A DNA stretch of 64,000 nucleotides from Candidatus Parcubacteria bacterium (GCA_027450205.1 DAIDJL010000002.1:205007-269006); one strand, 5' to 3'. Positions 293 to 56,315 are shown, numbered from the stretch's first letter. The notes: generated by a model not told the origin, from the sequence alone. Numbers and translations: made by a program.

Positions 293-427
293 CTAAGGGT
301 GTACTTTCTAGCCTGCGTTTTTACAGCATTAAAATCGATGAGCGGGTTAGTGGATGACGTCAGAACCTTTTTGATGGAAAAGCCCAGCAAATTTCACATT
401 TCAGATTTAATAAGCGAGAAATGTTGA
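293..427 (+). repeat. Conserved intergenic element, family 1 copy A (core GGATGACGTCAGAACCTTTTTGATGG)
   Basis: About 90 nt identical to 3188-3280, and the upstream roughly 45 nt is similar with paired substitutions. Followed by hairpin 438-461 (gaggctgg..ccagcctc). Confidence 0.7.
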
Positions 428-1612: not shown

Positions 1613-1784
1613 GGAGGAACGGGTCGAAGACTAACAAGTGCCTGATGCTAATCTCATTAGGCGCTTTTTTATCCGAATATCATCCATCCACCCCTAAGCC
1701 CCAACAAAATTCCACTCGGGCAAAAATAGCATTAACAGAATCGAATCTTTTTTAAAATCTATCCACCGGAAGCCTCTTGTGTTT

Positions 1785-1880
1785 GAGCGGGCTAGTGGAT
1801 GATGTTAGAACCTGCTTTAGAGAAAGTGCCAGCCAATTTGCGATTCCTGATTTAATGGCCGAGAAATGCTGAGATAAAAG
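1785..1880 (+). repeat. Conserved intergenic element, family 1 copy B (diverged, about 80% to copy A)
   Basis: gagcgggctagtggatgatgttagaacc...gagaaatgctgagataaaag aligns along the full length of copy A. Followed by hairpin 1883-1906 and a T-run. Confidence 0.65.
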
Positions 1881-3143: not shown

Positions 3144-3280
3144 CACTAAGGGTGCACGATCCAGCCCGCATGATTGCAGGCCTAAAATTTAGGAGCGGGT
3201 TAGTGGATGACGTCAGAACCTTTTTGATGGAAAAGCCCAGCAAATTTCACATTTCAGATTTAATAAGCGAGAAATGTTGA
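3144..3280 (+). repeat. Conserved intergenic element, family 1 copy C
   Basis: 3188-3280 identical to 338-427. Upstream part cactaagggtgcac...gcaggcctaaaattt aligns to copy A with paired changes. Followed by hairpin 3293-3323. Confidence 0.7.
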
Positions 3281-3856: not shown

Positions 3857-3980
3857 AACATCCTGCTTTCTCTCCGCTCTCCGGAGTTGTTGAAATTGTT
3901 CGGCTGCTCTACAGCGGAACTGCGCACATCATATCATTTGACAATCCATCCGTCAAGAGGTAGAATGTGGGCAGTCGTTC

Positions 3981-4241: not shown

Positions 4242-4517
4242 GCCTCGCGCTTCGGTGCGGGGCTTTTCTTATTTAAATATTGCGACGGCGATTGATACAA
4301 ATAAAGCAAGTATTGAAATCGCAAGTGTTACTAGGGAAAGATTTTTTTGGAAGCCTAGGGCGTAGCGATTTATCTCAAGCTGTAGCCGATTTGAGTGATA
4401 CAGCCAAAGGCGACACTTCGTGCATTCAGCAACTCCTGGGCCGCTTCGCTGATCGTAAGAAACTACCCTCCAATCGTGATCGCAATCAATTTGACGATCA
4501 GCCATGATTATCGGTCG

Positions 4518-4892
4518 CTAGCTAGTAGTCTTCGATTTCAAATCAATCATAAAGAGCTTGCCGAACTGAGGATCTTCTATCTCTATTGGAGAATATTTCC
4601 CCGCATATTTATTTAGATCTATGGAGTAGGCCTCAATGAATGACCACGCAGAAAAATATGCGCCTTTTTCATCTGCGCGTTTTTTCAATCTGAAAGTCCC
4701 GTCGGTTTCTTGCTCTAAGAGCTTGATGCCGATTTTCTGTTCGGCCTTGTCGAAGTAAAGTTTTACAGCGGCATATCGGTCAATTTCATATCGATGATGC
4801 ATGCCGGAGCTCAAACCAAAACCGCCAGATTTGTTGATGCTTACCTGGGGAGTGAATTTCCCTTTTCTCTTAGTGAATTCTTCAAAAGCCAT
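4518..4892 (-). CDS. hypothetical protein (124 aa)
   Basis: ORF; start next to an AT-rich region with TAATAAT near the ATG (possibly leaderless). Confidence 0.4.
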   Translation of the reverse strand: MAFEEFTKRKGKFTPQVSINKSGGFGLSSGMHHRYEIDRYAAVKLYFDKAEQKIGIKLLEQETDGTFRLKKRADEKGAYFSAWSFIEAYSIDLNKYAGKYSPIEIEDPQFGKLFMIDLKSKTTS

Positions 4893-4979
4893 TGTAAGAA
4901 TTATTAGTTTTTTTGTGTGAATACCTAGGGTTGTGGTATCCTAGGAAACATTCTAAACTTAAAGGGTGTGGATAAATTA

Positions 4980-5008
4980 TTGACAGTCAGTCCATTTTCA
5001 TTTAAAAT
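4980..5008 (+). promoter_or_regulatory. sigma70-type promoter (TTGACA-17-TAAAAT)
   Basis: TTGACA 4980-4985, 17 nt spacer, TAAAAT 5003-5008. Predicted TSS about 5016, right at the start of the long stem. Confidence 0.5.
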
Positions 5009-5016
5009 CTGTTCCT

Positions 5017-5140
5017 GAGCTTAGAAGCTCAATCTTGTGCCCGGCAGGGGGGACGATCCCCTTTTCCATAGTTCAAGGCTATGTGTCCTACCCACCGTAG
5101 ACGAGCCGGGCATAAGATTGAGTTTCTAAGCTCTTTTTTG
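5017..5140 (+). ncRNA. candidate small structured RNA (29-bp closing stem, three internal hairpins, U-tract end); alternatively a MITE-like element
   Basis: Arms 5017-5045 and 5105-5133 are reverse complements with two C-to-T changes that give G.U pairs. Inner hairpins ggggg/cccc and catag/ctatg. T6 at 5134-5139. No ORF. Confidence 0.35.
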
Positions 5141-5469
5141 ATATTCTTAGGGAAGTATACCATAAAATTCTAGCAAGTAATACCCCCAGAGATTTACCCT
5201 ATCTGATAATATCAAATGGTATCCGCTTGTCAAATGTCTGTTTTCTCACAGCATTTTGCTATGCAAATTGAATATGTGTCTAAGATACGATAAGTTTACT
5301 GCTTTATATTTTAAACATCTGTTCAATTTAATTCGGCGTTTATTCTTCAAATTCACGTGTTAATTTCCGAGTTCTTCCCCGCCTTTGTGCAATCTATCAT
5401 TTCAACCAGCGGACAGGGCAGAGACGGGTATAGGCGAAAAGAACCGCAGATTCACGTTTTATGCGGGGA

Positions 5470-5499
5470 TTGACAGATAAGCCAATTAAGGTGTATAAT
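5470..5499 (+). promoter_or_regulatory. sigma70 promoter (TTGACA-18-TATAAT) with a 110 nt leader containing a 9-bp hairpin
   Basis: Consensus hexamers at 5470-5475 and 5494-5499. Leader hairpin ggccgtagcc/ggctacggc at 5528-5574. AAGGAG RBS before ATG 5617. Confidence 0.55.
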
Positions 5500-5616
5500 A
5501 TAGTTGTTCTTTGAAATGGCGAATAATGGCCGTAGCCAAAAGGCATTGGAATGTCGATGCTTTCTGGCTACGGCTACGGATAGTAGTCCCTCTGGCAGAA
5601 AAAAGGAGAAAACACC

Positions 5617-6294
5617 ATGGCTAACACGGTGAAGACCTTTGATCGTCAGACCGCGCGGTTCCTTGCGGTCATCGCTGAAAACCTTCCGGAAATGCCTGCA
5701 GTATGTATGCAGATTTGGAGCGAACAACCCAAGCGAATCCAGGAAGTCTTACTAAAGGCTTTCGAGCCTCTTGTCCGCATCCCCCTGTGGTGGCACGAGA
5801 CAGTGAAGCCGGTCGTTCACGATGCCCGGAGTTGGAAAGAAGTGTTGCTGCAGCGCGGATTCACGATCAGTGATGAAGCACAAGCGATGCTTGAGAACGT
5901 TCTGCTCGTCCCGTTTCCCGAGACGGAGTACACTCAGGCCAGCGCGCATTCTTTCGGGTACGGCTTCGACGAGAAAAATCCACCTTCTCGCGCCGACTAT
6001 TACCGACGTGCGAAGATGTTGGGGCTCGAGCCAATTTCAGTTCAGGCGGCTCTCCAAGTTCTTCTGGAGGATCGCTACTCCAATCCCCCGAAGAATAATC
6101 TCAAGAAATTCCCTGAGCAGATTATCTTCGTTCTTGGGACAGAGCCCATCTCTGTCATCGACAAGGACGGCGCGACAACGAAGAAACTGTTTGTGTTCGA
6201 AAATTATGGCGGGCACAATTCGCTTCACGCCATGGATGTCGAGAGCAACAAGTTCCTTTATACACTCCTTGCCATACACAAGGATGAGCAGTAA
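5617..6294 (+). CDS. hypothetical protein (225 aa)
   Basis: Strong promoter plus RBS; ORF followed by a hairpin and T-run near 6330-6360. Confidence 0.6.
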   Translation: MANTVKTFDRQTARFLAVIAENLPEMPAVCMQIWSEQPKRIQEVLLKAFEPLVRIPLWWHETVKPVVHDARSWKEVLLQRGFTISDEAQAMLENVLLVPFPETEYTQASAHSFGYGFDEKNPPSRADYYRRAKMLGLEPISVQAALQVLLEDRYSNPPKNNLKKFPEQIIFVLGTEPISVIDKDGATTKKLFVFENYGGHNSLHAMDVESNKFLYTLLAIHKDEQ

Positions 6295-6775
6295 ACCATC
6301 AACCCATTATCGAAAAAGAGGAAAACCCTCTGCTTCGGTAGTGGGTTTTCTCTTTTTTATAATCCGGCCCCACAGTGCCACTCACTATATCTCCCCTGCA
6401 GACAATAGTGAGCGAGATGGGAGGGTCTTTAGAATTTCTTTACGAAATCTTTAACTTTTCTTTACCGCGAGGGCTACCAAATAAGCGTCCGCTTTGCTAT
6501 TTCCTCAATACTGTCCGCGAGCGGGTCGAACGTATAGCTCGCGCTTTTCTGCGGATTCTTGCGTATCGCGTATGGCGAGACAGGAAGGTTGTGGGCTGAA
6601 CGGATGTATTGGTCTACCCATATCATGCTCCGGCCATTTGCGTAAAAGCTTTTTTCAATTGAAAGATATTGTTCAGCTTCATTGATATCGATTGGGGTTC
6701 TCATGGGGTTTGGGTATCTTATATAATTACATTTTATGCATAAGTGTCGATGTTTTGTGCTGCCAAGGCCCACGT

Positions 6776-7240
6776 CTAAAGCATCCCTCTTTTTTTGATA
6801 TCCTTCCACCCGTGCTTTACCACGTTGCCATTTCGGTCGACGGAAAAGATGTATAGGCCAAGTCGTTTCGCTGCTTGCCATGGAATCCTGCGCAATGCGA
6901 TAGTTGCCGATGTTTCTGGCATTGCAATCCCGTAGTAGTTCGGCTCGAACGTCGTCATCCTCGTAACAATCTGGCCAAGGACGGCAACAAACGAACCATC
7001 ATCAGCGGAGCTTGCGTAGTGTGCTGACGAACCGCCTTTCACTTCGACTACAAAGTAGCGGGTATGCGGTGGTCTGCTGCTTCGGACGCGGATATCGACC
7101 CCTTTCTGATGGAGCGCAACCCTGCGGAGGTTATAGCCGAACCCATTGCGGAACAGCCAGTCCACCATTCTGTCGCCGACGAATTGCTCGGATTTTTTGT
7201 AATCCGCATGACGTACTCTTTTCGCTTTTGATTTTGCCAT
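6776..7240 (-). CDS. putative PD-(D/E)xK nuclease-fold protein
   Basis: 154 aa; motif GVDIRVRS...YFVVEVKGG resembles the D...(D/E)xK restriction-endonuclease-like core. Confidence 0.35.
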   Translation of the reverse strand: MAKSKAKRVRHADYKKSEQFVGDRMVDWLFRNGFGYNLRRVALHQKGVDIRVRSSRPPHTRYFVVEVKGGSSAHYASSADDGSFVAVLGQIVTRMTTFEPNYYGIAMPETSATIALRRIPWQAAKRLGLYIFSVDRNGNVVKHGWKDIKKRGML

Positions 7241-7245
7241 AGTTG

Positions 7246-7578
7246 TTAAAGACTAAGACAGAAGGTTGTTGGACTTCCACATGAGGCCTGCGGCGCGGGA
7301 GTCTCCCACGAGACGCCATTTGGCAGAGTGCTGGAAGTGAATATGGTGCCACTATTGGTATTGTCGGATGGATCTTCTAGCGTCGCTGCTAATACGTAGA
7401 CTGTTCCGCTCGCATCGGTGGCGTATGTATAATGGCGACCTTGGCTAGCTAGTGGATCGTTAGGGATGGTAATGCTGGAGAAATTACCGCCCGCGTTCGT
7501 TATCTTAGTTTGCAAATCCTGCCACGAGGTGATGCCGGTCGGGTACTGATTGTATTGGTTGTAATACACCTCAAGCAC
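7246..7578 (-). pseudogene. type IV pilin-like protein lacking the N-terminal signal and hydrophobic helix (probable remnant)
   Basis: R.A..DL.....L..YY...N.YP motif typical of pilins. In-frame upstream sequence runs into tRNA-Gly with no start codon or hydrophobic helix. GTG start only. Confidence 0.3.
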
Positions 7579-7717
7579 GGTTTGGGTCGTTAGAAGGTCG
7601 TTAATCCGCTGTGCGTCTCTTGCCCCCGTCGAGCAGGAAGTGGCAAGGTTCGAACACGGAGAAACACCTGATGAATCAGGCGGCCTAGAAGGATTCCATG
7701 AAATAAGTCCTAACTTG

Positions 7718-7788
7718 AGCGGGTAACGGGAGTCGAACCCGTGACTTCACCTTGGAAGGGTGACGTAATACCGTTATACAATACCCGC
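7718..7788 (-). tRNA. tRNA-Gly (anticodon TCC)
   Basis: Manual fold: acceptor GCGGGTA/TACCCGC, anticodon loop CTTCCAA, T-arm ACGGG-TTCGACT-CCCGT, discriminator T. CCA not encoded. Confidence 0.8.
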
Positions 7789-8729: not shown

Positions 8730-8801
8730 GGGGCGCGTAGCTCAATGGCAGAGCAGACGTCTTATACACGTCCGGTTCCAGGTTCGAGTCCTGGCGCGCC
8801 C
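8730..8801 (+). tRNA. tRNA with anticodon TAT (Ile-type, AUA decoder)
   Basis: Acceptor GGGCGCG/CGCGCCC, D-arm GCTC-AATGGCA-GAGC, anticodon stem GACGT/ACGTC with loop CTTATAC, T-arm CCAGG-TTCGAGT-CCTGG, discriminator A. Confidence 0.7.
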
Positions 8802-8820
8802 ACAATTTCTCTTTTTAGGT

Positions 8821-24632: not shown

Positions 24633-24730
24633 TGCAATACGTGCGATATTTTATTTGCCGACCTTTCCCCTGCTTAGTAAGGAACGGAACAGCATTAAAA
24701 AATGTTACGTAGGGATAGGAGCTTGTTTTT

Positions 24731-24768
24731 GGGTGCCTGGGTGGAGGAAGTCAGAACCTGTTTGGGGG
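24731..24768 (+). repeat. Conserved intergenic element, family 2 copy D (GGGTGCCTGGGTGGAGGAAGTCAGAACCTGTTTG)
   Basis: Shares gggtgcctgggtg.agga.gtcagaacctgtttg with copies at 25794 and 27431. Confidence 0.65.
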
Positions 24769-24786
24769 CAAAGGGTTGAAAGTTTT

Positions 24787-25629
24787 CTAGAAACAGCCGC
24801 CGGAATCCATTTGTGCGGGGGCTAAATGCATATTCACCCAACCCTGCGGCGTATTTTCCATCGCACTGGTAAATTCTCCGTCGCCATTGATATATTCAAA
24901 TCTTACGGTGGCTTTGGAGGTATCAGAGGGGCAGAGCTGGTAATCTTTTACTGCCAGAGTGGTACTCGCATATTGAGCACCTAACCCTTTTATAAAAGGA
25001 GCTTCATTGTTATAGGCGGTTTGATAACTTATTTGGTCAATACAGGTGAGACTTCCCAAATAAGGGGTCTCTAAATCTAATCCCTCAGGACCTGCATTAA
25101 TCCAAACTTGAATCCTGCACCGCAGGCCGGACTGTGAACTATAATATGCGTTCGAGAACACAAAGCCGCCCACAGCCGAATAATCAGAATTGCCCGTTGA
25201 CTGATTTGTCTGTAACACAAAGCCATGTAGACCCATGTAGCCATCCACAGTTTTAATCAAGGCCGTATTGAAGTTATATGCGATCTGAGGTGAAAGCGAA
25301 GTTGTCGTGGGGGCAGATGATACGGAGATTGTCGCCGCGGCAAAAGTTAATGAGCTCGAAGCGTGAACATCGATTGGCGTGCCATCCTGGTCGATCCATA
25401 CCAGGTCGCCTAATGTTGCGTTGGTGGTATTGTACCCGAGTGTGGCAATCTTGCCTTGCAGATCCGCCGTGACTCCGGCGATGCTTGTAGTTGAACTAGC
25501 TGACTCACCCTGGGAAGAAGTGGAAATGATTCCGTTATGTTGCGATGTATAATACCAAAATCCTACCGCGGCAATGACGACGATCACTAAAACGATTACA
25601 ATAATCGTCGCGAAGCCATCCTTTTTCAT
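24787..25629 (-). CDS. membrane-anchored extracellular protein
   Basis: N-terminal signal anchor IIVIVLVIVVIAAVGFWYY; S/T-rich; 280 aa. Confidence 0.5.
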   Translation of the reverse strand: MKKDGFATIIVIVLVIVVIAAVGFWYYTSQHNGIISTSSQGESASSTTSIAGVTADLQGKIATLGYNTTNATLGDLVWIDQDGTPIDVHASSSLTFAAATISVSSAPTTTSLSPQIAYNFNTALIKTVDGYMGLHGFVLQTNQSTGNSDYSAVGGFVFSNAYYSSQSGLRCRIQVWINAGPEGLDLETPYLGSLTCIDQISYQTAYNNEAPFIKGLGAQYASTTLAVKDYQLCPSDTSKATVRFEYINGDGEFTSAMENTPQGWVNMHLAPAQMDSGGCF

Positions 25630-25793
25630 ATACTCACTGTATCACACCCCAGATACAGTTCTTTAATGGCGCAAGGGGATGGCAGGTCGCTGGCCAGAAC
25701 GTCGAGGTGTAATAGGCGGACTCGGGCACGTGAAGTTCTATTTCCCGTTAGGGGTATGCAAAATTAGCCCCATAAAATCTATCTAAAAATCGA

Positions 25794-25840
25794 TGGGTGC
25801 CTGGGTGAAGGATGTCAGAACCTGTTTGATCGGATTATAA
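25794..25840 (+). repeat. Conserved intergenic element, family 2 copy E
   Basis: gggtgcctgggtgaaggatgtcagaacctgtttgatcggattataaa; intergenic. Confidence 0.65.
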
Positions 25841-25891
25841 AAATGCGGCTTGCCCCTTTCGAAGCAAGCCGTTGATACATGCAGAGGAGTT

Positions 25892-26599
25892 CTAGAGAGA
25901 CACTCCCATTTTCCTGTCGTTCTCGTTGCGAAGCTCAATGTCCACGAATAGATTTCGCGAGTCGTTCCGGACGCGGGCAATCGCGAGAAGATGCGCGAGT
26001 TCATATCCCCAGAGGGACGCTGGAGAATCCTTCTGTAGGTATTCTCTGAGTTCCGTAAGCCAGGCCCGCGTTACCCGTTCGTTGAAGTCTCCCGTATGCT
26101 TGAGTCGTTCGCGGAGGATTCCAAGGACCATTTCCTTCTCGGCGGAAAGCAGCTCAACGTGATCCCTGCCGGGCATGATTGCTTCCCACAAGAACCGGAA
26201 GATCGCCTTTCCGAAATCGTCAAAGTTCTGCCCCCACTTGAAGGACAGGCGCTTCAGGATGTCCCCTCGGATTCCCATGAGGGATGGTTTTTCGGTGTCC
26301 TGAGGATCTTTGCGTCGGATGCTTCCTTTTGGGTAGGCATACATGAGCGCGAAGCAAAATTCGCGATCAATCCTCTCAACTTCATCGAAGTACTCGCGAT
26401 CTCCGGCGTGCTTCGGGTTGCCATCGGGCTTGATGAGTTCCGGTATGGCGCGAACTAGCTCACGGGCATAATCCTCTTGCGATTTGACGATCGCCTCCCG
26501 CAATGCACCAGAGAGGACGAGGAGGCGTTCGGATGAAGTGAGCCCTCCTGCGAGGCGCTTCACTAACGCAAGGTTTGTGGAATCACTAAACTGAGACAT
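25892..26599 (-). CDS. hypothetical cytoplasmic protein
   Basis: ORF, likely start MSQFSDS at 26599 (track extends to 26674); no recognised domain. Confidence 0.45.
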   Translation of the reverse strand: MSQFSDSTNLALVKRLAGGLTSSERLLVLSGALREAIVKSQEDYARELVRAIPELIKPDGNPKHAGDREYFDEVERIDREFCFALMYAYPKGSIRRKDPQDTEKPSLMGIRGDILKRLSFKWGQNFDDFGKAIFRFLWEAIMPGRDHVELLSAEKEMVLGILRERLKHTGDFNERVTRAWLTELREYLQKDSPASLWGYELAHLLAIARVRNDSRNLFVDIELRNENDRKMGVSL

Positions 26600-26716
26600 G
26601 GAATAGATGCTCCTTTCAAGATCTTTTCCCCTTGGAGAAAAGAGCGCTGTTTTGCCCTTGGGCAGAAACAACACGCTGATATCCGTATATCACTTAACTA
26701 CTTAAAAGTCCAGGAA

Positions 26717-27247
26717 ATGAAGCTGGGCCAGTTGATTGTGTGGTTCTACGGTAGCAAGCTTTCTGCTATGGATGATCTCTCGAATTACGACAAACTAAAG
26801 GAAGATGCCCAGCGATTTTATAGCAGCACTGGCCGGATTACCTCACCGGCATTTAATGAAGACATCTATTTTACCGCCGAGGGGTTCAACCACATCATCT
26901 ATAAGAGAGCCCGATCCGAGCGGGAGAAATCCTCGCAGATATTGCGTTTTAAACTCCTTCCTCTTGCGGTTAAGCTCATAAAACTTTCGACGACATTTCA
27001 GGAGTTTGAAGAAACACTCCAACAGTTTGAGGTAAAGAGCTTCAAGAAACGGGTGACGAAGAGTAAGCCGGTGAAGTACTGGGGTATCATCGCGATCATC
27101 GAGGGAAGAAAGATAAAAGTCATACTTCGCAAGATAGGCGATAACGGCCAGATGCATTTCTGGAGCATTGTTCCGGCGTGGACAACAAACAAATTCAGGG
27201 ATACGAGATTTTTCACAACGATGAAGGGCAACCCTGACGAAGACTAA
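26717..27247 (+). CDS. hypothetical protein (176 aa), divergent from 25892..26599
   Basis: ORF; basic C-terminal half; no recognised domain. Confidence 0.45.
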   Translation: MKLGQLIVWFYGSKLSAMDDLSNYDKLKEDAQRFYSSTGRITSPAFNEDIYFTAEGFNHIIYKRARSEREKSSQILRFKLLPLAVKLIKLSTTFQEFEETLQQFEVKSFKKRVTKSKPVKYWGIIAIIEGRKIKVILRKIGDNGQMHFWSIVPAWTTNKFRDTRFFTTMKGNPDED

Positions 27248-27414
27248 AAACAAAAACACCGCCAAAGGCGGTATCTTTGTCGTGCCTGCCTTCGGCTTAT
27301 GTATTAGCCGAATAGGGCTGACGCCCCACAAGCACATTTACATATTACACTTTTGGGGCGAAAATGCAACACGCATTTTATATGGATTTAATGAGCTTTC
27401 CATACCCCTCGGAC

Positions 27415-27476
27415 TAGGAAGTCAGAACTTGGGTGCCTGGGTGAAGGATGTCAGAATCTGTTTGATGAGATTATAA
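27415..27476 (+). repeat. Conserved intergenic element, family 2 copy F with partial internal duplication
   Basis: ggaagtcagaac (27417-27428) immediately precedes the full unit gggtgcctgggtgaaggatgtcagaatctgtttgatgagattataaa. Confidence 0.65.
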
Positions 27477-27743
27477 AAAAAAGCGGCCCGGATCGCTTAA
27501 TGCAACCCGAGCCATGGCCGCTCTTGGTCAGTAAATGTATTCACTGCGGTTAAGAGTGTTTTATCGCATATTCGTGTTATGGGTGGGCTAGTGGGGAAAA
27601 TTGGAAATTATCTTACCTCTTCGTCTCAATCCCTTTTTCTTACAGTCCAATCCATAACAATTGAGGCGTATACATCTCTAGGGACATTATTAATGCGAGG
27701 AGCTATTACAGGATTGATGGTTCGGGAGTCATTAACAACGTCA

Positions 27744-27773
27744 CGAGAGCTCATTTGACACCAAATACCCACT
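27744..27773 (+). promoter_or_regulatory. promoter with embedded CsoR-type operator palindrome (ATACCCACTAGGGGTAT)
   Basis: TTGACA 27744-27749, palindrome in the spacer, TATCAT -10; drives the csoR-like gene. Same architecture at 39104-39133. Confidence 0.6.
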
Positions 27774-27791
27774 AGGGGTATCATATGCTAT

Positions 27792-28061
27792 ATGAACCAG
27801 ATTATTAAGAAAAAAGCTTTGCGGCGCCTCCAGATTGTGAAAGGCCAAATTAAGGGCCTTGAAAAGATGATCGGTGATGAAAAATATTGTATTGATATTA
27901 TCACGCAATCATCTGCAATCAAGCAAGCACTTTCCGGCGTTGAGGGGTTGCTGCTCGAAAATCACCTCGCCACCCACGTAGCGATGCAGATGAAGGCCGG
28001 GCATGGCAAGAAAGCCGCTGATGAAATATTAAAAGTCTATAAATTATCACAACGAAGATAA
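27792..28061 (+). CDS. csoR: CsoR/RcnR-family metal-sensing transcriptional repressor
   Basis: 89 aa; family pattern ...L.RL.R..GQ..G...M......C.D...Q..A...AL......L...H. Confidence 0.75.
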   Translation: MNQIIKKKALRRLQIVKGQIKGLEKMIGDEKYCIDIITQSSAIKQALSGVEGLLLENHLATHVAMQMKAGHGKKAADEILKVYKLSQRR

Positions 28062-40060: not shown

Positions 40061-40205
40061 AACGATTTACACGTGCCCGATGCATCCGGATGTGAAACAG
40101 GATGCGCCGGGGAGGTGTCCAAAATGCGGCATGAATCTGGTAGCGGTGGATGCGGGTACGACAGAAAGTGGACATGCGCACAAATCTTCAGGCGGTTGCT
40201 GTTAA
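40041..40205 (+). CDS. small metal-binding protein (CPMHPD...CPKCGMNLV module) ending GGCC
   Basis: [37 protein letters not shown]...SSGGCC; paralogous to the N-terminus of the downstream ATPase. Track ORF 39897..40205 is an upstream extension. Confidence 0.5.
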
Positions 40206-40212
40206 CGATACA

Positions 40213-42315
40213 ATGAATAACGAATCCCAAAAACTTTATACCTGCCCCATGGATCCGGATGTCATTTCCGACCATCCCGGGGAATGCCCGAAGTGCGGCA
40301 TGAATCTGGTTCCCATGGACATGGGCGGCCATGATGGTAGTGATGCGCACGCCGGTCATGGCGGCGCCGAGCAGGATTTCAAGCGCCGCTTCTGGATCAC
40401 GCTTCCTTTCGTGCTGGTTGCCATGGCGCTCTCGCCGAACATCCAGCTATGGTTTCATTTTGAATGGACGGTTCCCGGCGGGAGCCTGTGGCTCTTCCTG
40501 ATCGGCGCCTTCGTGTTTTCCTACGGCGGCTGGCCGTTCTTCAAGGCGGCCAAGGGCGAACTGACGCATAAGAATCCTGCCATGATGACGCTCGTCGCTT
40601 TTGCCATCACCGTAGCATTTGCATTCTCCGTGGCCGCCACGTTCTTTTTCCCCGGATCATCACTCTACTGGGAGATGGCGACACTGATCTCCGTTTTCCT
40701 GCTCGGCCACTGGCTTGAGATGCGGGCGGTGCGCGGCGCGACCGGCGCTCTTTCGGAACTGGCGAAACTCATTCCGCCCTCCGCGCACCTCGCAAAAGAC
40801 GGCCAGCTTACCGACGTGCAGACTAGCCAATTGATGATCGGCGACAGGGTATTGGTAAAACCCGGCGAGAAGGTTCCGGTGGACGGCAGGGTTGTGGACG
40901 GTGAAAGTTCGGTGAGTGAAGCGATGCTCACTGGCGAATCGCGCCCGATCGGCAAAAAGGCGGGCGACGAGGTTGTGGGCGGATCGCTCAATCAGGACGG
41001 ATCGCTCACGGTCGAAGTGGCGAAGACCGGGGCGGATACGGCCATCGCTCAGATCATGAAACTCGTGCGCGAGGCACAGGGTTCCAAGCCGAACGTCCAG
41101 CATCTCGCGGATCGCGCGGCATCGGTGCTCTTTTATGTTGCCGTTGCGGCGGGTCTGATTTCGTTCGTGGTCTGGTATTTTGTGTTCCCGCAGGGGGCGA
41201 TCTTCGCCGCCACCGTGGCCGTTGCCGCGATCGTCATCGCCTGTCCGCACGCGCTCGGCCTTGCGATCCCCACGGTAACGTCCATCACGACGACCTTGGG
41301 CGCGAAGAACGGCATTTTAATCAAAGATATGAAGGGTTTGGAGATTGCGCGGAAACTTAACTACGTGGTATTCGACAAGACCGGCACGCTCACCAAGGGT
41401 GAATTCGGGGTTGTCGATATCGCCGCGTCCGGAACGTCCGATGTCCGCGATGAGAATGAACTGCTCGCGCTCGCCGCAGCCGTTGATGTGCCGTCGCAAC
41501 ATTCGATCGCGCAGGGCATCGTGAAGGCCGCCAAAGAAAAGAACCTCCGCATAGAGGAGGTCAAGGGCTTCAAATCGTATCCGGGCAAAGGGGTTTCCGG
41601 CATGGTCGGCGACAAAGAGGTTTTGATTGGCAACAAGGTGCTCATGCAGGAGCAAAATGTGGCAGGCGTAATGGACGTCGTGAGCCGCAGCGCCGAGGTG
41701 GGCACCCCGAACTACGTGGCAGTGAACGGAAAGTTTGCGGGGACGATCTTTCTCGCGGATATAGTGCGGGATGAATCCAAGGAAACCATCGCACGCTTGC
41801 GTGCGATGGGCATCAAGACGGCGATGCTCACGGGCGACACGCAGGACGTCGCCGATGCCGTCGGCCGTGAACTCGGCATCGACACGGTGTTCGCGCATGT
41901 ATTACCCGAAGACAAGGTCAACAAGGTGAAGGAGCTCCAGTATGGCGGCAATATCGTCGCCATGGTGGGCGACGGCGTGAACGACGCCGCATCACTCACC
42001 CAGGCGCACGTCGGTATCGCGATCGGGGCGGGCACAGACGTGGCGGTGGCATCGGCGGACATTGTCCTGATGAAGAGCAACCCGCTCGACGTGGCGAAGA
42101 CGATTACCCTCAGTCGCAAGACGAACCGCAAGATGGTCCAGAACCTCGCGTGGGCGACGGGGTACAACGTGTTCGCCATCCCTATCGCCGCGGGCGTGCT
42201 CTATCCTTCATTCGGCATCCTCCTCCCTCCTGCGTGGGCGGCGATCCTCATGAGCACATCGTCGGTGATCGTGGTCGGGAACGCGCTGCTCTTGAGAAAA
42301 GAAAAACTGGGATAG
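40213..42315 (+). CDS. copB: copper-exporting P1B-type ATPase, CPH subtype (CopB-like) with N-terminal CPMDPD...CPKCGMNLV domain
   Basis: [24 protein letters not shown], 8 TM; start [15 protein letters not shown] at 40213 (track 40150). Confidence 0.9.
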
Positions 42316-44631: not shown

Positions 44632-45903
44632 CTACCCTTCAAAAGCCTTTTTTAATATAGAGAAGACCACGAGTGCTGTAAATGCGATCACGGCAGCAAG
44701 CGCAAAAGCGTAGGACGGATCGATCGTCCACAGCCGTCCGGCAATGACGGATGCGGGCAGGTAGATAAGCCCGGTGACGAAGTTATAGAGGCCAATCGCC
44801 GAACCGCGTCGCGTGGGCTCCAAATCGGCAATGAACGCCTTGCTTTGTGCCTCATCGATGGCGTAGAACACGCCGAAGACGATAAAGAGGACGATAATCT
44901 CCCACTTGGCGAACGCGAACATGAACCCGGATGCCATTACGGCGTAGATGAGATAGCTCAGCATGATGACCCACGTGCGACCGATCCGATCGCCAAGCCT
45001 TCCCATTGGAATCGAAGCAATAACGAACGCGACATTGAACAGCGCATACAGAAGGATGACGTCCGCCACGGAAAAGCCGACAAGGTATGCTTTGAGGAGC
45101 AGGAATCCGAAGCTGAAATAGGCAAGCGAAAAGATGCTCGCGGGCACAAGATACCGCTTGAACGAGGGCGATAGCATCTTCCATGACACGAACATATTTT
45201 CTCGCTCATGCGGCGGGCCGGGGCGCTCTTTCATCACAAGGAGCACGACGACCGCGAGCGTGGCCACGATCGCCGCTCCGATAAAGAGAATATGGAAGCT
45301 ATGAAGGCTCTGCCCAAGCCAGGCAAAAAGAGCGAACGCCAAGAGCGGCCCCGCCACGGCGCCTGCCTTGTCCATCGCTTTATGCACACCGAACGAATAC
45401 CCGCGATCCGCTTCAGATGCAACTTCGGCAAGCCACGCATCCCGCGGCGGCCCGCGGAAGCTTTTCCCGAGGCGCTCGACGATGCGGAAGAGCGCGAGCG
45501 ACGATATCGAATTCGCCACGACGAGAAAGAATTTCGCGAGCGTGGAGAACCCATACCCCACGGCCGCAAGTGATTTTCGCTTGCCGCTGTGGTCGGATAG
45601 CCATCCCGAAAGATAATCGAGGGATGACGCCGAAAAATCCGCAAGTCCCTCCACGAGGCCGAGCAATGCTGCCGAGGCACCGGCGAATACAGTGAAGAAC
45701 ACCGCGAATACCGAAAATATTGCCTCCGAGCTCACGTCAGTGAGAAAACTCACGAGCCCGAGCCGTATCACGTCTGGATGAACCCCGAAACGGTGGCTAC
45801 CTTCATTCGTAGGCATATCGTCAATTATATCCGAGATTAATCGGTTGGGTATGCAAGCGGGTCGAGGTTGGAAATATAAGGCTCCAGTTGCCTTTTTGCG
45901 CAC
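44632..45903 (-). CDS. MFS transporter
   Basis: 12 TM; GRLGDRIGR (MFS loop 2-3 signature); 423 aa (start may be 45816). Confidence 0.8.
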   Translation of the reverse strand: MRKKATGALYFQPRPACIPNRLISDIIDDMPTNEGSHRFGVHPDVIRLGLVSFLTDVSSEAIFSVFAVFFTVFAGASAALLGLVEGLADFSASSLDYLSGWLSDHSGKRKSLAAVGYGFSTLAKFFLVVANSISSLALFRIVERLGKSFRGPPRDAWLAEVASEADRGYSFGVHKAMDKAGAVAGPLLAFALFAWLGQSLHSFHILFIGAAIVATLAVVVLLVMKERPGPPHERENMFVSWKMLSPSFKRYLVPASIFSLAYFSFGFLLLKAYLVGFSVADVILLYALFNVAFVIASIPMGRLGDRIGRTWVIMLSYLIYAVMASGFMFAFAKWEIIVLFIVFGVFYAIDEAQSKAFIADLEPTRRGSAIGLYNFVTGLIYLPASVIAGRLWTIDPSYAFALAAVIAFTALVVFSILKKAFEG

Positions 45904-46195
45904 GCAGGCGCTACACTTAACCCATAACTGAATATGATGGGGCGCAAGCCTCGGAGCCTAAACCTTCACCGGCATGGCTCATAAGACTCAAACCAGAATA
46001 CTGAACCCCGCGTTCAGCAACTCTGGTTTGAGCCGTACTGGGAAACTGGTACGGGACCGAAAGGTCTAGCTGACACGGGGTTCAGTGTTATTTCTTTCCG
46101 TGTCGGCTATCAAAGGCCGGCATTTTTGTTTATCAATTCGTGATCAAAATCAATCACAGAAAGAAAATTAAGGAGGATAGAAAATAACCAATACT

Positions 46196-47191
46196 ATGGC
46201 AAAAAGTAAAAATAAAAAGATTCCCGGGTGGGCATGGGCTGTCTCCGGCCTTCTTGTCGGCATTGTGGGTGCATGGATCGCGGTCGAATACACGGTTGCA
46301 ATAAACCAACCGACGAATAGCGGACAACCGATTACGGCGCCACAACCGGCTCAGAACCAGGCGGCCGTGCAGCAACAGCAAGCCCAACAGCAAATATCAC
46401 AGCAGGAGATCGCAAATCTCAAGACGGAGAATGCGCAGGCACAGACGACCTTGGCACAACAACAGGCCGAAATTGCGAAGCAGCAAGAGCTTTCGCAGCT
46501 CTTTACTATCGGCAACACGCTCCAGGACTATTACAACAAAATCCGTGATGCACAGAATCTCGGATCGGCATCATGTTCTTATGGGTCCCAGTGCGAAGTG
46601 AATTTCTGGGCAGTCTTGGCGAATAACATCAACAGTGGCACAAGCTATGAGGGAACGTACAACTCGCTCACTAACCAGGGTAATTCCGGCATGTACAGCG
46701 ATGCCGCGATGGCTGCGGGGAAGCAGCTCGATACCCTCGTATTCGCCCCGTATGCGGCTGATGTCATCTCAACGGATTCCGATGCGGTGAAGATCAAGAA
46801 AATCCTCGATTTCATCGATGCAAACCTCACCTATGAGCGTGACATGCAGGAAACGCCGCGGGCACCTGCCGAAACGCTCGGGCTAAGATCGGGGGACTGC
46901 AAGAGCTATTCAATTCTTGCGAGCGCGGCATTCTCGGTCGCCGGAGTACACTCGGCTGTTATGCAGGTGGAAAACGCAAGTGGGACGCTCGGCCATGCGA
47001 TGGTGCTTGTGCAGTCAAGCGAGAACTTACCACTTTCCGAATCATATTCTGATTTGACCTCGGTTGGCCTTCCTGCTGGGAGATGGTGGGTCATCGAGCC
47101 ACAGTACACCTATGAGGAGCAACAGCAGCACCCGGACTGGTTCTCGCAGTGGAAACTGGTACACGCCGCGCAGGTGGCGCTCAGGGGATAA
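46196..47191 (+). CDS. secreted Gln-rich protein with transglutaminase-like Cys-protease core
   Basis: Signal anchor, QQQ-rich coiled coil, then GDCKSYSILASAAF...GHAMV (Cys/His). Confidence 0.55.
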   Translation: MAKSKNKKIPGWAWAVSGLLVGIVGAWIAVEYTVAINQPTNSGQPITAPQPAQNQAAVQQQQAQQQISQQEIANLKTENAQAQTTLAQQQAEIAKQQELSQLFTIGNTLQDYYNKIRDAQNLGSASCSYGSQCEVNFWAVLANNINSGTSYEGTYNSLTNQGNSGMYSDAAMAAGKQLDTLVFAPYAADVISTDSDAVKIKKILDFIDANLTYERDMQETPRAPAETLGLRSGDCKSYSILASAAFSVAGVHSAVMQVENASGTLGHAMVLVQSSENLPLSESYSDLTSVGLPAGRWWVIEPQYTYEEQQQHPDWFSQWKLVHAAQVALRG

Positions 47192-54653: not shown

Positions 54654-56252
54654 ATGGAAAAATCAGCAGAGAAAATTAAATACTTCATGTACGCTCGCAA
54701 ATCGTCCGAGAGCGAGGATCGGCAGATGGCGTCTATCGAATCCCAGATTGACGAGCTGAAAAAGCTTGCCAAAGAAAACAATCTCGAGATCGTCGAGGTG
54801 TTTTCCGAATCAAAGTCGGCGAAAGCGCCGGGTCGCACGGAGTTCAGGAAAATGATCGAGCGCATTCAGGAAGGTGAAGTACAAGGTGTCATCTGCTGGA
54901 AGCTGAACCGGCTGGCGAGGAATCCTGTTGATGGCGGGGAAATCAGCTGGCTGCTTCAGCAGAGTGTCATCAAGCACATCCAGACGTATGGGCGGAGCTA
55001 TTACCCGACCGATAACGTCTTAATGATGAGCGTGGAGTTCGGCATGGCGAACCAATTTGTGAAGGACTTGAGCGTGGATACGAAGCGCGGCATGCGGGCA
55101 AAGGCGGAGCGAGGATGGTGTCCCGGTCCGGCTCCCGTCGGATATCTCCATAATCCCATTAAGAAACAGGGCGAAAAGGAGGTTCTTTCCGATGAAAAGC
55201 GTTTTGGCATCGTCTCAAAATGCTGGGCGATGATGCTCATGGGAGCGCATACGGTGCCACAGGTGTGGGAGGTTGCGGTGAACCGGTGGGGCCTTACCGG
55301 TCGCATGGGGAAGAAGCTCAGTTTGAGCAACATGTATGCTTTGTTTGCTAATCCCTTCTATTGCGGAGAGTTTGAGTATCCTCTTGGAAGCGGTATCTGG
55401 CATCAGGGGAAGCACGAGCCGATGATTACCCGGAAAGAATTCGAGCGCGTGCAGACCATTATGGGCTGGGGCAACAAGTCACGGCGGAAGACGCATGACA
55501 TTTCCATGCGCGGCCCGATCCTGTGTGGGGAGTGCGGCGCAATGATTACAGCCGAGGAGAAAGTCAAAATCCAAAAGAATGGAAATCGCCATGAATACAC
55601 TTACTACCACTGTACTGGGCGAAAAAACAAGAATTGCTTGCAGAAGCGCATCCGCATTGAAGAGAAGGAGTTAGAGCGACAGGTTAAGGAAATCTTTTCA
55701 AAGGTTGAAATCCCGCAGGAGTTTTATGAGTGGGCCATGGATGTATTACGCGAGTCGAATGAGGCGGAGTCGACAACTCGTGCGAAGATCACCGACAGTC
55801 AGCGGGCAGAATACGATCGTAGCGTGAAGATGATCGACGCCATCATCGATATGCGGGCGCGTGGCGAAATCACCGAGGAAGAGTTTACGCGACGCAAGAC
55901 ATCGCTGCTTACGGAAAAACATCACTTACAAGGGCTTATTAACGATGCCGACAAAGGTGTAGATGATTGGCTCGCAACGGCCGACAAGTATTTCAACTTC
56001 GCGGCGAATGCCAAGCGGAAGTTCGAAAACGGCACATCCGACGAGATCCGGGAGCTACTAACCCTCTTAGGTTCGGACCTCCTCTTAACGCAAGGAAAAC
56101 TCAGTGTTTCCTTGGCCGAACCACTCATCGTGATCGAAAAATTAGCGCCGGGAGCACGACTCATAAATGAGAGGTTTGGACCTGCAAAAAATGCAGAAGA
56201 TATAAAGGAATTAAGAACGTTATACGCTCAAAATTCAACAAGGGGTGCCTAA
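54654..56252 (+). CDS. large serine recombinase (resolvase catalytic domain plus recombinase and zinc-ribbon domains)
   Basis: N-terminal YARKSSESEDRQMASIESQ (catalytic Ser region), recombinase domain, Cys4 CGECG...C..C, C-terminal coiled coil; stop codon lies inside tRNA-His. Confidence 0.85.
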   Translation: MEKSAEKIKYFMYARKSSESEDRQMASIESQIDELKKLAKENNLEIVEVFSESKSAKAPGRTEFRKMIERIQEGEVQGVICWKLNRLARNPVDGGEISWLLQQSVIKHIQTYGRSYYPTDNVLMMSVEFGMANQFVKDLSVDTKRGMRAKAERGWCPGPAPVGYLHNPIKKQGEKEVLSDEKRFGIVSKCWAMMLMGAHTVPQVWEVAVNRWGLTGRMGKKLSLSNMYALFANPFYCGEFEYPLGSGIWHQGKHEPMITRKEFERVQTIMGWGNKSRRKTHDISMRGPILCGECGAMITAEEKVKIQKNGNRHEYTYYHCTGRKNKNCLQKRIRIEEKELERQVKEIFSKVEIPQEFYEWAMDVLRESNEAESTTRAKITDSQRAEYDRSVKMIDAIIDMRARGEITEEEFTRRKTSLLTEKHHLQGLINDADKGVDDWLATADKYFNFAANAKRKFENGTSDEIRELLTLLGSDLLLTQGKLSVSLAEPLIVIEKLAPGARLINERFGPAKNAEDIKELRTLYAQNSTRGA

Positions 56253-56315
56253 CGGGAATCGGACCCGTATTGCCGCTGCCACAGAGCGGAGCTTTACCAT
56301 TAAGCTATAGGCACC
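56244..56315 (-). tRNA. tRNA-His (anticodon GTG) with genomically encoded G-1
   Basis: G-1 plus acceptor GTGCCTA/TAGGCAC, D-arm GCTT-AATGGTA-AAGC, anticodon stem CCGCT/AGCGG with loop CTGTGGC, T-arm ACGGG-TCCGATT-CCCGT, discriminator C. Confidence 0.8.

What the first reader, a model, noticed from the sequence alone, without database searches (positions are those of the whole stretch)
24731..27476. Second family of three short intergenic repeats (GGGTGCCTGGGTGAAGGATGTCAGAACCTGTTTGAT) sharing the GTCAGAACCTNTTTG core with family 1
Copies at 24731-24768, 25794-25840 and 27431-27476 all sit between genes on the + strand. Copy F carries an extra partial unit (ggaagtcagaac) directly upstream. The core (G)GATG.CGTCAGAACCT(G/T)TTTGAT is shared with the family-1 elements in block 1, so six copies of one motif lie only in the two low-GC accessory blocks. 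In the family-1 frame each copy translates to a related peptide (GAWVKDVRTCL vs SGLVDDVRTFL). Copy E would encode only 15 aa after a stop, which argues for a nucleic-acid-level element such as a regulator binding site, recombination site or small RNA.
Basis: seen in the sequence. Interest (0 to 1): 0.65.

Follow-up and report, generated by a model that had tools for sequence, protein, structure and literature searches.

The report
Recombinase attachment-site scars at tRNA islands
The short repeats are the clipped-off ends of a serine-integrase gene, left as attachment-site scars where mobile islands inserted next to two tRNA genes; this integrase family, from a little-studied bacterial group, routinely cuts off the tail of its own gene when it integrates.

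Summary
The three copies are real, and there is one overlooked family-1 copy at 1783-1872. They are not regulator sites, small RNAs or peptide genes.

Each copy has two parts. The first is an 8-nt core identical to the 3' acceptor end of a tRNA gene further right in the window: GGGTGCCT for family 2 (tRNA-His, 56242-56314) and GAGCGGGT for family 1 (tRNA-Gly, 7717-7788). The second is a ~26-nt arm that in relatives forms the in-frame last 12-29 codons of a large serine recombinase (LSR) gene.

The window's own LSR (54654-56252) is 94% identical to such a relative. It stops exactly at the core, where it is fused to tRNA-His. The repeats are therefore attL-type scars (core + P' arm, the severed LSR tail) marking the far ends of islands stacked at two tRNA genes.

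Of 120 homologues, 50 end at this junction, 30 read into a tRNA and 24 keep the tail. The invariant GTCAGAACC (codons V-R-T) resembles the tRNA T-loop. It sits 5 bp farther from the core than in the tRNA, which is the known attP/attB offset.

tRNA targeting and an att site inside the recombinase's own gene are unusual for serine integrases.

The parts
24729..24779 (+). Family-2 copy D. Core O is GGGTGCCT at 24731-24738 and the P' arm is 24739-24764. In the recombinase frame it reads (TTG) GAWVEEVRTCLGAKG*. It is the leftmost scar of the tRNA-His array.
25793..25840 (+). Family-2 copy E. Core 25795-25802, P' arm 25803-25828, reading MGAWVKDVRTCLIGL*. A 12-aa stretch is 92% identical to the C-terminus of the L004 recombinase.
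25733..25752 (+). Inverted tRNA-His-like fragment (AGTTCTATTTCCCGTTAGG) lying 43-61 nt left of the core of copy E. It belongs to a 95-nt composite that is 94% identical in L014. It is a candidate P arm of a recombinase-less cassette, but this is not resolved.
27407..27430 (+). Degenerate, truncated P'-like arm (CCTCGGACTAGGAAGTCAGAACT) directly abutting copy F. This is the 'partial unit' of the finding.
27429..27476 (+). Family-2 copy F. Core 27431-27438, P' arm 27439-27464, reading (TTG) GAWVKDVRICLMRL*. It is the candidate attL of the ~29-kb island that ends at the recombinase gene.
54654..56252 (+). Large serine recombinase gene, 532 aa, with Resolvase + Recombinase + Zn_ribbon_recom domains. 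It ends ...NSTRGA*, and its stop codon TAA is supplied by the tRNA-His sequence. Compared with L004 it lacks the 12-aa tail.
56242..56314 (-). tRNA-His (GTG). Its 3' acceptor end (56243-56250 on the + strand, GGGTGCCT) is the core of attR. Synteny with L001 and L006 stops exactly at 56243.
338..427 (+). Family-1 copy A. Core GAGCGGGT 340-347, then a 29-codon tail MSGLVDDVRTFLMEKPSKFHISDLISEKC*.
1783..1872 (+). Core GAGCGGGC 1785-1792, tail (TTG) SGLVDDVRTCFRESASQFAIPDLMAEKC*. It has the same length and the same stop as copy A.
3191..3280 (+). Family-1 copy B. Core 3193-3200. The start codon is replaced by AGG.
7717..7788 (-). tRNA-Gly (TCC). Its 3' acceptor end (7717-7724 on the + strand, GAGCGGGT) is the family-1 core. 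Synteny with L013 stops exactly at 7716.

Best explanation
Each repeat is one half of a serine-integrase attachment site. It consists of the 8-nt crossover core plus the element-side P' arm, left at the distal (attL) end of a mobile island that inserted into the 3' end of a tRNA gene. In this Patescibacteria family of large serine recombinases (LSRs), the element's attP lies inside the recombinase's own reading frame. The core falls 26-27 codons after a conserved R-F/L-E-P motif, and the P' arm encodes the last 12-29 residues (...D-D/E-V-R-T-C-L...). Recombination with the tRNA gene joins the body of the recombinase gene to the tRNA (attR). This regenerates the tRNA 3' end, and the tRNA sequence supplies a stop codon. 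The severed tail goes to the far end of the island. Family 2 (core GGGTGCCT) belongs to the array at tRNA-His and family 1 (core GAGCGGGT) to the array at tRNA-Gly. Several scars per array mean several elements stacked at one tRNA. Only the innermost tRNA-His element still has its recombinase. The invariant GTCAGAACC is probably the motif bound by the recombinase's zinc-ribbon domain. It resembles the reverse-strand T-loop of the target tRNA (GTCGAACC / ATCGGACC) and lies 5 bp farther from the core, as expected for a P-type versus a B-type half-site. Shown here: sequence continuity with the recombinase gene, core identity with the tRNAs, the geometry, synteny breaks at the tRNA ends, and family-wide C-terminal classes. 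Inferred: the order of integration events, present-day activity of the scars, the zinc-ribbon-motif assignment, and any regulatory role of tail loss.
For: (1) L004:1934-3568 is a 544-aa LSR with Resolvase, Recombinase and Zn_ribbon_recom domains. It ends ...NSTRGAWVKDVRTCLLTI*, so the motif is in frame at its 3' end. (2) The window carries a 94%-identical LSR at 54654-56252. The alignment to L004 covers residues 1-532 only. At the DNA level the two agree up to ...ACAAGGGGTGCCT. L004 then continues GGGTGAAGGATGTCAGAACC, while the window continues AACGGGAATCGGACCC, which is tRNA-His on the opposite strand. (3) Copies D, E and F all begin with the same GGGTGCCT. They lie to the left of the LSR/tRNA-His junction and in the same orientation as it. 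(4) The family-1 core GAGCGGGT equals the 3' end of tRNA-Gly at 7717, again to the right and in the same orientation. (5) The geometry recurs elsewhere. The motif lies 1.5-4.5 kb from an opposite-strand tRNA-His in L001, L003 and L006, and L006 has four same-strand copies. LSR-to-tRNA-His junctions recur with different cargo in L022-L024 and L029. (6) Nucleotide synteny with L001 and L006 stops exactly at 56243, and with L013 exactly at 7716. (7) A tail profile splits cleanly: the window LSR covers positions 1-39, and every window copy covers only positions 35/39 to 49/57. (8) Classifying the 120 best homologues by C-terminus (tails listed) gave 50 that stop 26-27 residues after RFEP, 30 that read on into reverse-strand tRNA (DSN/ESD) and 24 that keep an RT tail. 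(9) Family-1 tails align without gaps to the tails of P0003 and P0006. In the conserved stretch, differences between copies are synonymous: A versus the 1783 copy has TTA/CTA, GAC/GAT and GTC/GTT, and L005b versus L018a has GTC/GTA, GTT/GTC and CTG/TTG. (10) The T of R-T lies 32 residues after RFEP in 24 of 24 tail-bearing proteins. The N/D of the T-loop read-through lies 30 residues after it in 29 of 30. Given the codon phases seen in the DNA, GAACC is 5 nt farther from the core in P' than in the tRNA arm. This matches the 5-bp attP/attB shift of the zinc-ribbon motif (PMC3783163). (11) The 27.5-54.6 kb stretch holds only accessory-type genes, while 8.8-21.6 kb holds backbone genes such as FtsH.
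Against: No empty attB, circular junction or excision product was seen, and nothing here shows recombination. L004 and the other tail-bearing loci could be free attP or internal junctions of tandem arrays. No contig showed terminal overlap. Canonical serine integrases recombine only attP x attB, so stacking several elements at one tRNA needs a relaxed pairing or a regenerated attB, and this is not demonstrated. The segments between scars (1.1-2.9 kb) carry no recombinase, and no recombinase remnant is detectable upstream of any window copy. No LSR gene is left next to tRNA-Gly, and a tRNA-Gln gene sits between the family-1 scars and tRNA-Gly. No clear inverted zinc-ribbon-type motif was found in the P arm inside the recombinase gene, and ungapped dyad symmetry around the core is at chance level. 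Most related copies were collected with a pattern that forced the core sequence, so their core invariance is partly ascertainment. Only about 7 copies were found without that constraint.
Confidence: 0.85

Rival explanations
1. The scars are live sites of an integron-like cassette platform. Recombinase-less 1-3 kb cassettes, each bounded by a core + P' site, are captured, excised and reshuffled at tRNA genes in trans by a resident serine recombinase. This extends the best explanation rather than excluding it.
For: Arrays of same-strand copies spaced 0.7-2.9 kb apart, with one or two accessory genes each, recur in several loci: the window (3 + 3 copies), L006 (4), L014, L018, L005 and L009 (2 each). 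A 95-nt end module including copy E is 94% identical in L014 although the cassette contents differ. In L006 an inverted GGTTCTA-containing arm abuts the core at tRNA-His with roughly P-type spacing.
Against: No cassette was seen in two contexts or as a circle. Serine integrases are normally strictly attP x attB. Scars frozen at integration and later deletion of recombinase genes explain the same pattern. The proposed cassette P arm is separated from the core by an unexplained 37 nt in E, L014 and L006 copy 3.
Confidence: 0.25
2. The copies are ordinary pseudogene debris. They are C-terminal fragments of recombinase genes left by random deletions and have no relation to site-specific recombination.
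For: L005 holds a truncated recombinase (C-terminal 243 aa) that still ends with the motif. L009 copies keep about 7 more recombinase-like codons upstream of the motif.
Against: All six window copies, and most copies elsewhere, start at the same nucleotide, the 8-nt core that equals the acceptor end of the cognate tRNA. This is also where the integrated recombinase gene ends. Random deletion would not give a common end point twice, with two different tRNA-matched cores.
Confidence: 0.05
3. The copies are independent micro-genes encoding 15-29 aa peptides.
For: There is an open frame with a stop at a similar position in many copies. Substitutions in the conserved stretch are synonymous. An ATG is present in copies A and E.
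Against: The start is not conserved: ATG, TTG, CTG, CCG, AGG or GGG occur at the equivalent codon, and the G-run before the core varies from 3 to 8 nt. The same codons are the in-frame end of 540-600 aa recombinases, which accounts for the coding signature.
Confidence: 0.03
4. The copies are a structured small RNA, a REP/MITE-like repeat, or the operator of a local regulator such as the tandem-LuxR protein.
For: They are intergenic and multicopy. Some copies (A, B, L009, L011) can pair a 5' AGGTTCT with the 3' AGAACCT.
Against: There is no Rfam family at gathering score or at E<=10. Folding z-scores for D, E and F are +0.19, +0.34 and +0.73, and those for A and B are only -1.7 and -1.4. The 5' partner is absent from most copies. 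Copies always have one orientation relative to the tRNA, unlike REP or MITE elements. The motif occurs in genomes and contexts without the LuxR gene.
Confidence: 0.03

Closest known systems
Attachment sites of large serine integrases (Listeria A118/LI, phiC31, Bxb1)
   Same: The protein has the same domain set. There is a short core shared by the element and target sites, and hybrid sites flank the element in direct orientation. A distal half-site motif lies 5 bp farther from the centre in the P-type arm than in the B-type arm (PMC3783163).
   Different: The target is the 3' end of a tRNA gene. Mageeney et al. 2020 call this previously unreported for serine integrases and found it in 14 of 297 cases (PMC7192596). 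The attP also lies inside the integrase's own coding sequence, so integration removes the last 12-29 residues.
Tandem arrays of integrative elements at tRNA genes, and decayed integrase-less elements flanked by att repeats (CIME-type accretion; SCCmec direct repeats at the end of rlmH)
   Same: Repeated direct att copies mark the boundaries of stacked islands at one target gene. Only some units keep a recombinase. Tandem arrays are described in PMC7192596. The SCCmec and CIME comparisons rest on my own knowledge.
   Different: Classical tRNA arrays use tyrosine integrases and repeat a stretch of the tRNA itself. Here only 8 nt are tRNA-identical, and the conserved part of the repeat is recombinase coding sequence.
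SSV1-type 'suicidal' integrases of archaea
   Same: The att site is carried within the recombinase's own gene, so integration disrupts that gene (PMC8371274).
   Different: Those are tyrosine recombinases, split into two inactive halves. That review describes them as exclusively archaeal. Here a bacterial serine recombinase loses only a short C-terminal tail and keeps all catalytic and DNA-binding domains.
Integration-dependent immunity of mycobacteriophage BPs
   Same: The attP lies inside the 3' part of a phage gene. Integration yields a protein 33 residues shorter, with different stability and activity (PMC4557955). This is a precedent for integration acting as a C-terminal switch.
   Different: The clipped gene there is the repressor and the integrase is a tyrosine recombinase. 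No functional difference between the two recombinase forms has been shown here.
Integron attC cassette arrays
   Same: Short same-orientation sites separate small, mostly single-gene accessory cassettes.
   Different: There is no IntI tyrosine recombinase, no attC-type imperfect palindrome and no GTTRRRY core. The array is anchored on a tRNA gene.

Membership tests
Large serine recombinase (serine integrase) | N-terminal resolvase-type catalytic domain | tested here: met
   PF00239 at 2.9e-21 on window 54654-56252. The N-terminus reads YARKSSESEDRQ (Y-x-R-x-S...Q) in the L004 translation.
Large serine recombinase (serine integrase) | Recombinase domain plus zinc-ribbon domain C-terminal to the catalytic domain | tested here: met
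   PF07508 at 3.5e-06 and PF13408 at 1e-06, both above the curated cut-offs. phrog_95 'integrase' at 2.1e-56.
Large serine recombinase (serine integrase) | Coiled-coil motif inserted in the zinc-ribbon domain, which controls directionality | tested here: inconclusive
   There is only a sub-threshold SHOCT match at residues 399-419. No structure was predicted.
Serine-integrase attL/attR pair | A core shared by both hybrid sites, in direct orientation at the two ends of the element | tested here: met
   GGGTGCCT occurs at 24731, 25795, 27431 and 56243, all on the + strand. GAGCGGGT/C occurs at 340, 1785, 3193 and 7717.
Serine-integrase attL/attR pair | One hybrid site joins the element arm P to the target arm B', and the other joins the target flank B to the element arm P' | tested here: met
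   P-O-B' is the recombinase 3' end fused to tRNA-His. O-P' is the recombinase tail detached at copies D, E and F. The B arm could not be verified because no empty site was found.
Serine-integrase attL/attR pair | The distal (zinc-ribbon) motif is shifted about 5 bp outward in P-type relative to B-type half-sites | tested here: met
   GAACC ends at +20 from the core in P' and at +15 in the tRNA-His and tRNA-Gly arms. The offset is constant across the family. Reference: PMC3783163.
Serine-integrase attL/attR pair | Recombination at the site: an unoccupied attB in relatives, a circular form, or activity in an assay | not testable with these tools
   Only indirect evidence exists: synteny breaks exactly at 56243 and 7716. 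No empty site or circle was found.
Integron attC site | Imperfect inverted repeat with RYYYAAC...GTTRRRY cores, next to an IntI tyrosine recombinase | tested here: not met
   The copies show no such cores and no dyad symmetry. The only recombinase in the window is of the serine type.
REP/REPIN or MITE | A palindromic unit or terminal inverted repeats, with copies in both orientations | tested here: not met
   All 7 window copies are on the + strand. An inverted partner is absent from most copies.
Any Rfam RNA family | A covariance-model match | tested here: not met
   There is no match at gathering score in the window and none of note at E<=10 on 250-470 or 25690-25890.
SSV1-type self-disrupting integrase | A tyrosine recombinase whose gene is split into inactive N and C parts by integration | tested here: not met
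   The att site does lie inside the recombinase's own gene. However, the enzyme is a serine recombinase, and only residues beyond 532 are removed.

The most novel reading that the evidence does not exclude
Patescibacteria carry a serine-recombinase-driven, integron-like accretion platform at tRNA genes. A very large recombinase family recognises the universal T-loop region of tRNA genes through a motif that it also encodes in its own C-terminal V-R-T codons. Its attP sits inside its own gene, so integration clips the tail. This could act as a built-in switch of activity, stability or directionality. The resulting core + P' scars may remain usable sites that let recombinase-less accessory cassettes be captured, excised or shuffled in trans.
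Probability: 0.25. Interest if true: 0.8.

Novelty: new variant of a known kind. Interest (0 to 1): 0.6.

Why it matters
For this window, the result turns two unexplained repeat families into a map. It gives two island arrays, anchored on tRNA-Gly (about 1-7716) and on tRNA-His (about 24.7-56.2 kb), and one intact integrase. It also gives exact junctions that delimit accessory DNA in a genome where most cargo genes have no annotation.

More generally, it points to a recombinase family with thousands of members in candidate-phyla bacteria that does three things considered unusual for serine integrases:
- it targets tRNA genes;
- it keeps its attP inside its own reading frame;
- it loses its C-terminal tail on integration.

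The proposed dual use of the V-R-T codons, as protein sequence and as a copy of the tRNA T-loop recognition motif, would explain why those residues are the only invariant ones in the tail alignment. It would also make attB/attP pairs predictable from sequence, which is useful for genomic-island mapping in metagenome bins and for prospecting integrases with defined tRNA targets. In addition, database gene calls for this family often run through the neighbouring tRNA gene. This artefact can serve as a marker of the integrated state.

Tried and rejected
1. Small RNA or riboswitch. Rfam gave nothing at gathering score or at E<=10. Single-sequence folds of the copies are no more stable than shuffles for D, E and F.

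2. Long hairpin or MITE, with a 5' AGGTTCT pairing the 3' AGAACCT. This looked promising for A, B, L009 and L011, but the partner is missing from most copies. In E it turned out to be an inverted tRNA-His-like fragment.

3. Micro-ORF. Rejected because the starts are not conserved and the G-run length varies.

4. A viral-contig scan for the motif gave 0 hits.

5. Protein search with the 48-aa frame of copy B found no homologue sharing enough words.

6. Search for decayed recombinase remnants upstream of the window copies, with a full-length profile and a tail profile on six-frame translations. Nothing was found upstream of the core.

7. Ungapped dyad symmetry around the cores is at chance level. 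I found no clear inverted distal motif in the P arm within the recombinase gene.

8. Circularity of tail-bearing contigs. No terminal overlaps were found.

9. Similarity among the cassette proteins of the window arrays: none. Pfam and PHROGs gave almost nothing for them.

10. Looking for an empty site through the exact SHMT protein to the right of tRNA-His. It is not on record. Contigs of close recombinase homologues are all occupied, and their attL lies beyond the 10 kb fetched.

11. Literature. No paper in the searchable library describes serine integrases of candidate-phyla bacteria at tRNA genes. The library does not cover subscription journals.
Full report
**Observation.** The repeat is there. 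GTCAGAACCTNTTTG occurs five times on the + strand (359, 3212, 24750, 25814, 27450), against 0.24 matches expected by chance. The three family-2 copies align in register over about 50 nt. The family-1 pair extends over 152 nt at 88% identity. A profile built from the copies finds one more, diverged family-1 copy at 1783-1872, and it confirms the truncated unit in front of copy F. All copies are on the + strand. Most are followed within about 12 nt by an A-run and a hairpin that reads as the terminator of a convergent - strand gene.

**First leads that failed.** Rfam has nothing at these places, either at gathering score or at E<=10. Copies D, E and F fold no better than shuffled sequence. A 5' AGGTTCT that can pair with the 3' AGAACCT exists in some copies (A, B, L009, L011) but not in most.

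Read as peptides, the copies do have an open frame. The start is not conserved, however: the equivalent codon is ATG, TTG, CTG, CCG, AGG or GGG. The G-run in front of the core varies from 3 to 8 nt.

**What the motif is.** Pattern scans found the motif in three Patescibacteria genome assemblies (MAGs) and 18 metagenome contigs. In two of them the frame stays open far upstream. L004:1934-3568 is a 544-aa protein with Resolvase, Recombinase and Zn_ribbon_recom domains. It ends ...NSTRGAWVKDVRTCLLTI*. L005 holds the C-terminal half of a homologue ending ...LGASVYDVRTCLVRG*. The motif is therefore the 3'-terminal coding sequence of a large serine recombinase (LSR).

A tblastn search with the L004 protein then found a 94%-identical LSR in the window itself, at 54654-56252. 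The alignment covers residues 1-532 only. The DNA shows why:
- Both genes read ...ACAAGGGGTGCCT.
- L004 continues GGGTGAAGGATGTCAGAACCTGTTTG...
- The window continues AACGGGAATCGGACCCG..., which is tRNA-His (56242-56314) on the opposite strand.

In the window the recombinase ends ...STRGA*, with the stop codon supplied by the tRNA sequence.

**The cores match tRNA ends.** Copies D, E and F all begin with GGGTGCCT, which is the reverse complement of the 3' acceptor strand of tRNA-His. They continue with the arm that follows the core in L004. Family-1 copies begin with GAGCGGG(T/C), which is the 3' end of tRNA-Gly(TCC) at 7717-7788 (+ strand TTGAGCGGGTAACGGGAGTCGAACCC). In both families the copies lie to the left of the cognate tRNA and in the same orientation as the junction. 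That is where the distal hybrid site (attL = flank - core - P') of an element inserted into the tRNA 3' end should be.

**The geometry recurs elsewhere:**
- The motif lies 1.5-4.5 kb from an opposite-strand tRNA-His in L001, L003 and L006.
- L006 has four same-strand copies. They separate small cassettes carrying a nucleotidyltransferase/HEPN pair, a Fic protein and other genes (by reading the translations), with no recombinase.
- Close homologues of the window LSR are fused to tRNA-His in L022-L024 and L029, with quite different cargo, including a reverse transcriptase and an MmeI-like restriction-modification gene.

**Island boundaries.** Nucleotide synteny of L001 and L006 with the window runs from the right and stops exactly at 56243. 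Synteny of L013 stops exactly at 7716. The 27.5-54.6 kb stretch holds accessory-type genes: CsoR, a copper P-type ATPase, DsbD/DsbA/thioredoxins, an MFS transporter, ICMT, and a 1134-aa protein of unknown function. The 8.8-21.6 kb stretch holds backbone genes such as FtsH, and parts of it (around 8.8-10.7, 12.8-13.1 and 19.2-21.6 kb) match L013/L002, L006 and L019 at the nucleotide level.

The window therefore reads as follows:
- an accessory array ending at tRNA-Gly (about 1-7716);
- backbone;
- an accessory array ending at tRNA-His (about 24.7-56.2 kb), whose innermost element, about 29 kb from copy F to the LSR, still has its recombinase;
- backbone.

**A property of the whole family.** The LSR has more than 5000 database relatives at E<=1e-20. 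The 120 best fall into three main C-terminal classes:
- 50 stop 26-27 residues after a conserved R-F/L-E-P motif (...LLRG*).
- 30 read on into the reverse strand of a tRNA (...DSNPRPTG, ...RESDPYCRCHRAELYH, which translate the T-arm).
- 24 keep a tail of the type ...LLRLLDDVRTCLMG... or ...RGRIVEDVRTRIMRQNGHIYIPELVRA.

The remainder did not fall cleanly into these classes. The family-1 tail (SGLVDDVRTFLMEKPSKFHISDLISEKC) aligns without gaps to the long tails of P0003 and P0006. A profile of tail-bearing C-termini splits cleanly in the window. The LSR at 56136-56252 covers positions 1-39, and every scar covers only positions 35/39 onward.

The coding signature of the copies was therefore acquired while they were recombinase tails. 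That signature includes synonymous differences in the conserved stretch. It also includes the equal length and shared stop of copy A and the 1783 copy.

**Why the core GTCAGAACC is invariant.** In all DNA copies seen, the V-R-T codons are GTY-AGA-ACC, with CGA once. The tRNA arms carry the reverse-strand T-loop at the corresponding place: ATCGGACC in tRNA-His and GTCGAACC in tRNA-Gly. Counting from the core, GAACC ends at +20 in the P' arm and at +15 in the tRNA arm, in both families.

Across the family, the T of R-T lies 32 residues after RFEP in 24 of 24 tails. The N/D of the T-loop read-through lies 30 residues after it in 29 of 30. With the codon phases seen in the DNA, that is again 5 nt. 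Rutherford et al. showed that the zinc-ribbon-domain motif of serine integrases lies 5 bp closer to the centre in attB than in attP half-sites (PMC3783163).

I infer that GTCAGAACC is the P-type copy of the motif this recombinase reads in the tRNA T-loop region. This would explain the tRNA targeting. It would also explain why R and T are the only invariant tail residues in the alignment. This step is inference, not demonstration.

**What remains open:**
- Nothing here shows recombination. No empty site or circular form was found.
- How several elements stack at one tRNA is unclear. Canonical serine integrases pair only attP with attB.
- It is not settled whether the recombinase-less 1-3 kb units are decayed elements or cassettes moved in trans.
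- Copy E, together with L014 and L006 copy 3, is preceded by an inverted tRNA-His-like fragment. In L006 that fragment abuts the tRNA with roughly P-type spacing, but elsewhere it is separated from the core by 37 unexplained nucleotides.
- A tRNA-Gln gene lies inside the family-1 array.
- No recombinase is left at tRNA-Gly.

**Comparison with what is known.** Att scars and tandem islands at tRNA genes are textbook, but for tyrosine integrases. Mageeney et al. found tRNA use by serine integrases in only 14 of 297 cases and called it previously unreported (PMC7192596). Recombinases that carry their att site in their own gene are described as an exclusively archaeal, tyrosine-type phenomenon (PMC8371274). 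The nearest functional precedent for clipping a C-terminus by integration is the repressor of mycobacteriophage BPs (PMC4557955).

I found no description of this Patescibacteria family in the searchable library. That library omits many journals, so the result is best filed as a new variant of a known kind.

**Verdict.** The finding is real and is explained. The copies are attL-type scars, each made of a tRNA-matched core plus the severed tail of a serine-integrase gene. The explanation is more interesting than the repeats themselves.

Noticed in passing
window 45955-46067 (+): LOOT RNA (RF03000) at 70.7 bits against a gathering score of 46.4. It lies inside the tRNA-His island, between an MFS transporter gene (44632-45903, -) and a transglutaminase-like gene (46196-47191, +).
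   Followed up: no
window 27768-27790 and 27792-28061: A GC-rich pseudo-palindrome, ATACCCactaGGGGTAT, sits directly upstream of a CsoR-family repressor gene and looks like its operator. The related string CATACCCCT / AGGGGTATG also occurs next to copies E and F and in L001, which at first confused the repeat analysis.
   Followed up: partly
window 40107-40150 and 40276-40319: A 44-nt direct repeat (75%) at the start of the copper P-type ATPase gene (40150-42315). It overlaps the gene's N-terminal heavy-metal-binding domain region.
   Followed up: no
window 8731-8803 (+); also L002 and L013: tRNA-Ile with anticodon TAT, which is uncommon in bacteria. It is conserved in position next to tRNA-Gly and FtsH in the relatives.
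   Followed up: no
window 959-1007 and 3924-3972: A promoter-like 49-nt repeat (82%) between the divergent gene pairs of two family-1 cassettes. The cassette proteins themselves show no similarity to one another.
   Followed up: partly
window 5037-5111 (-): A tRNA-Gln gene lies between the family-1 scars and tRNA-Gly. It is either cargo of an inserted element or a sign of rearrangement.
   Followed up: no
proteins P0002, P0005, P0011, P0017 and about 30 others: Database gene calls of this recombinase family often run through the reverse strand of the adjoining tRNA gene, giving tails such as DSNPRPTG or RESDPYCRCHRAELYH. This annotation artefact marks the integrated state.
   Followed up: yes
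L022 64-4843; L029 954-4872: Islands at tRNA-His in relatives carry an RVT_1 reverse transcriptase next to an MmeI-like restriction-modification gene, so the cargo looks defence-related.
   Followed up: no
L004 626-1726: A tyrosine integrase gene lies immediately upstream of the tail-bearing serine recombinase gene, so two recombinases of different families are adjacent.
   Followed up: no
L002 1395-1402, L010, L013 5129-5136: A run of eight G directly follows the stop codon of a 58-aa ORF and leads into the core of the motif. Across copies the length of this G-run varies from 3 to 8.
   Followed up: no
window 27620-27750 (-): A 43-codon ORF (MSSRDVVNDSRTINPV...) lies upstream of the strong - strand terminator at 27477-27520 that follows copy F. 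It may be a small gene at the left end of the 29-kb island.
   Followed up: no
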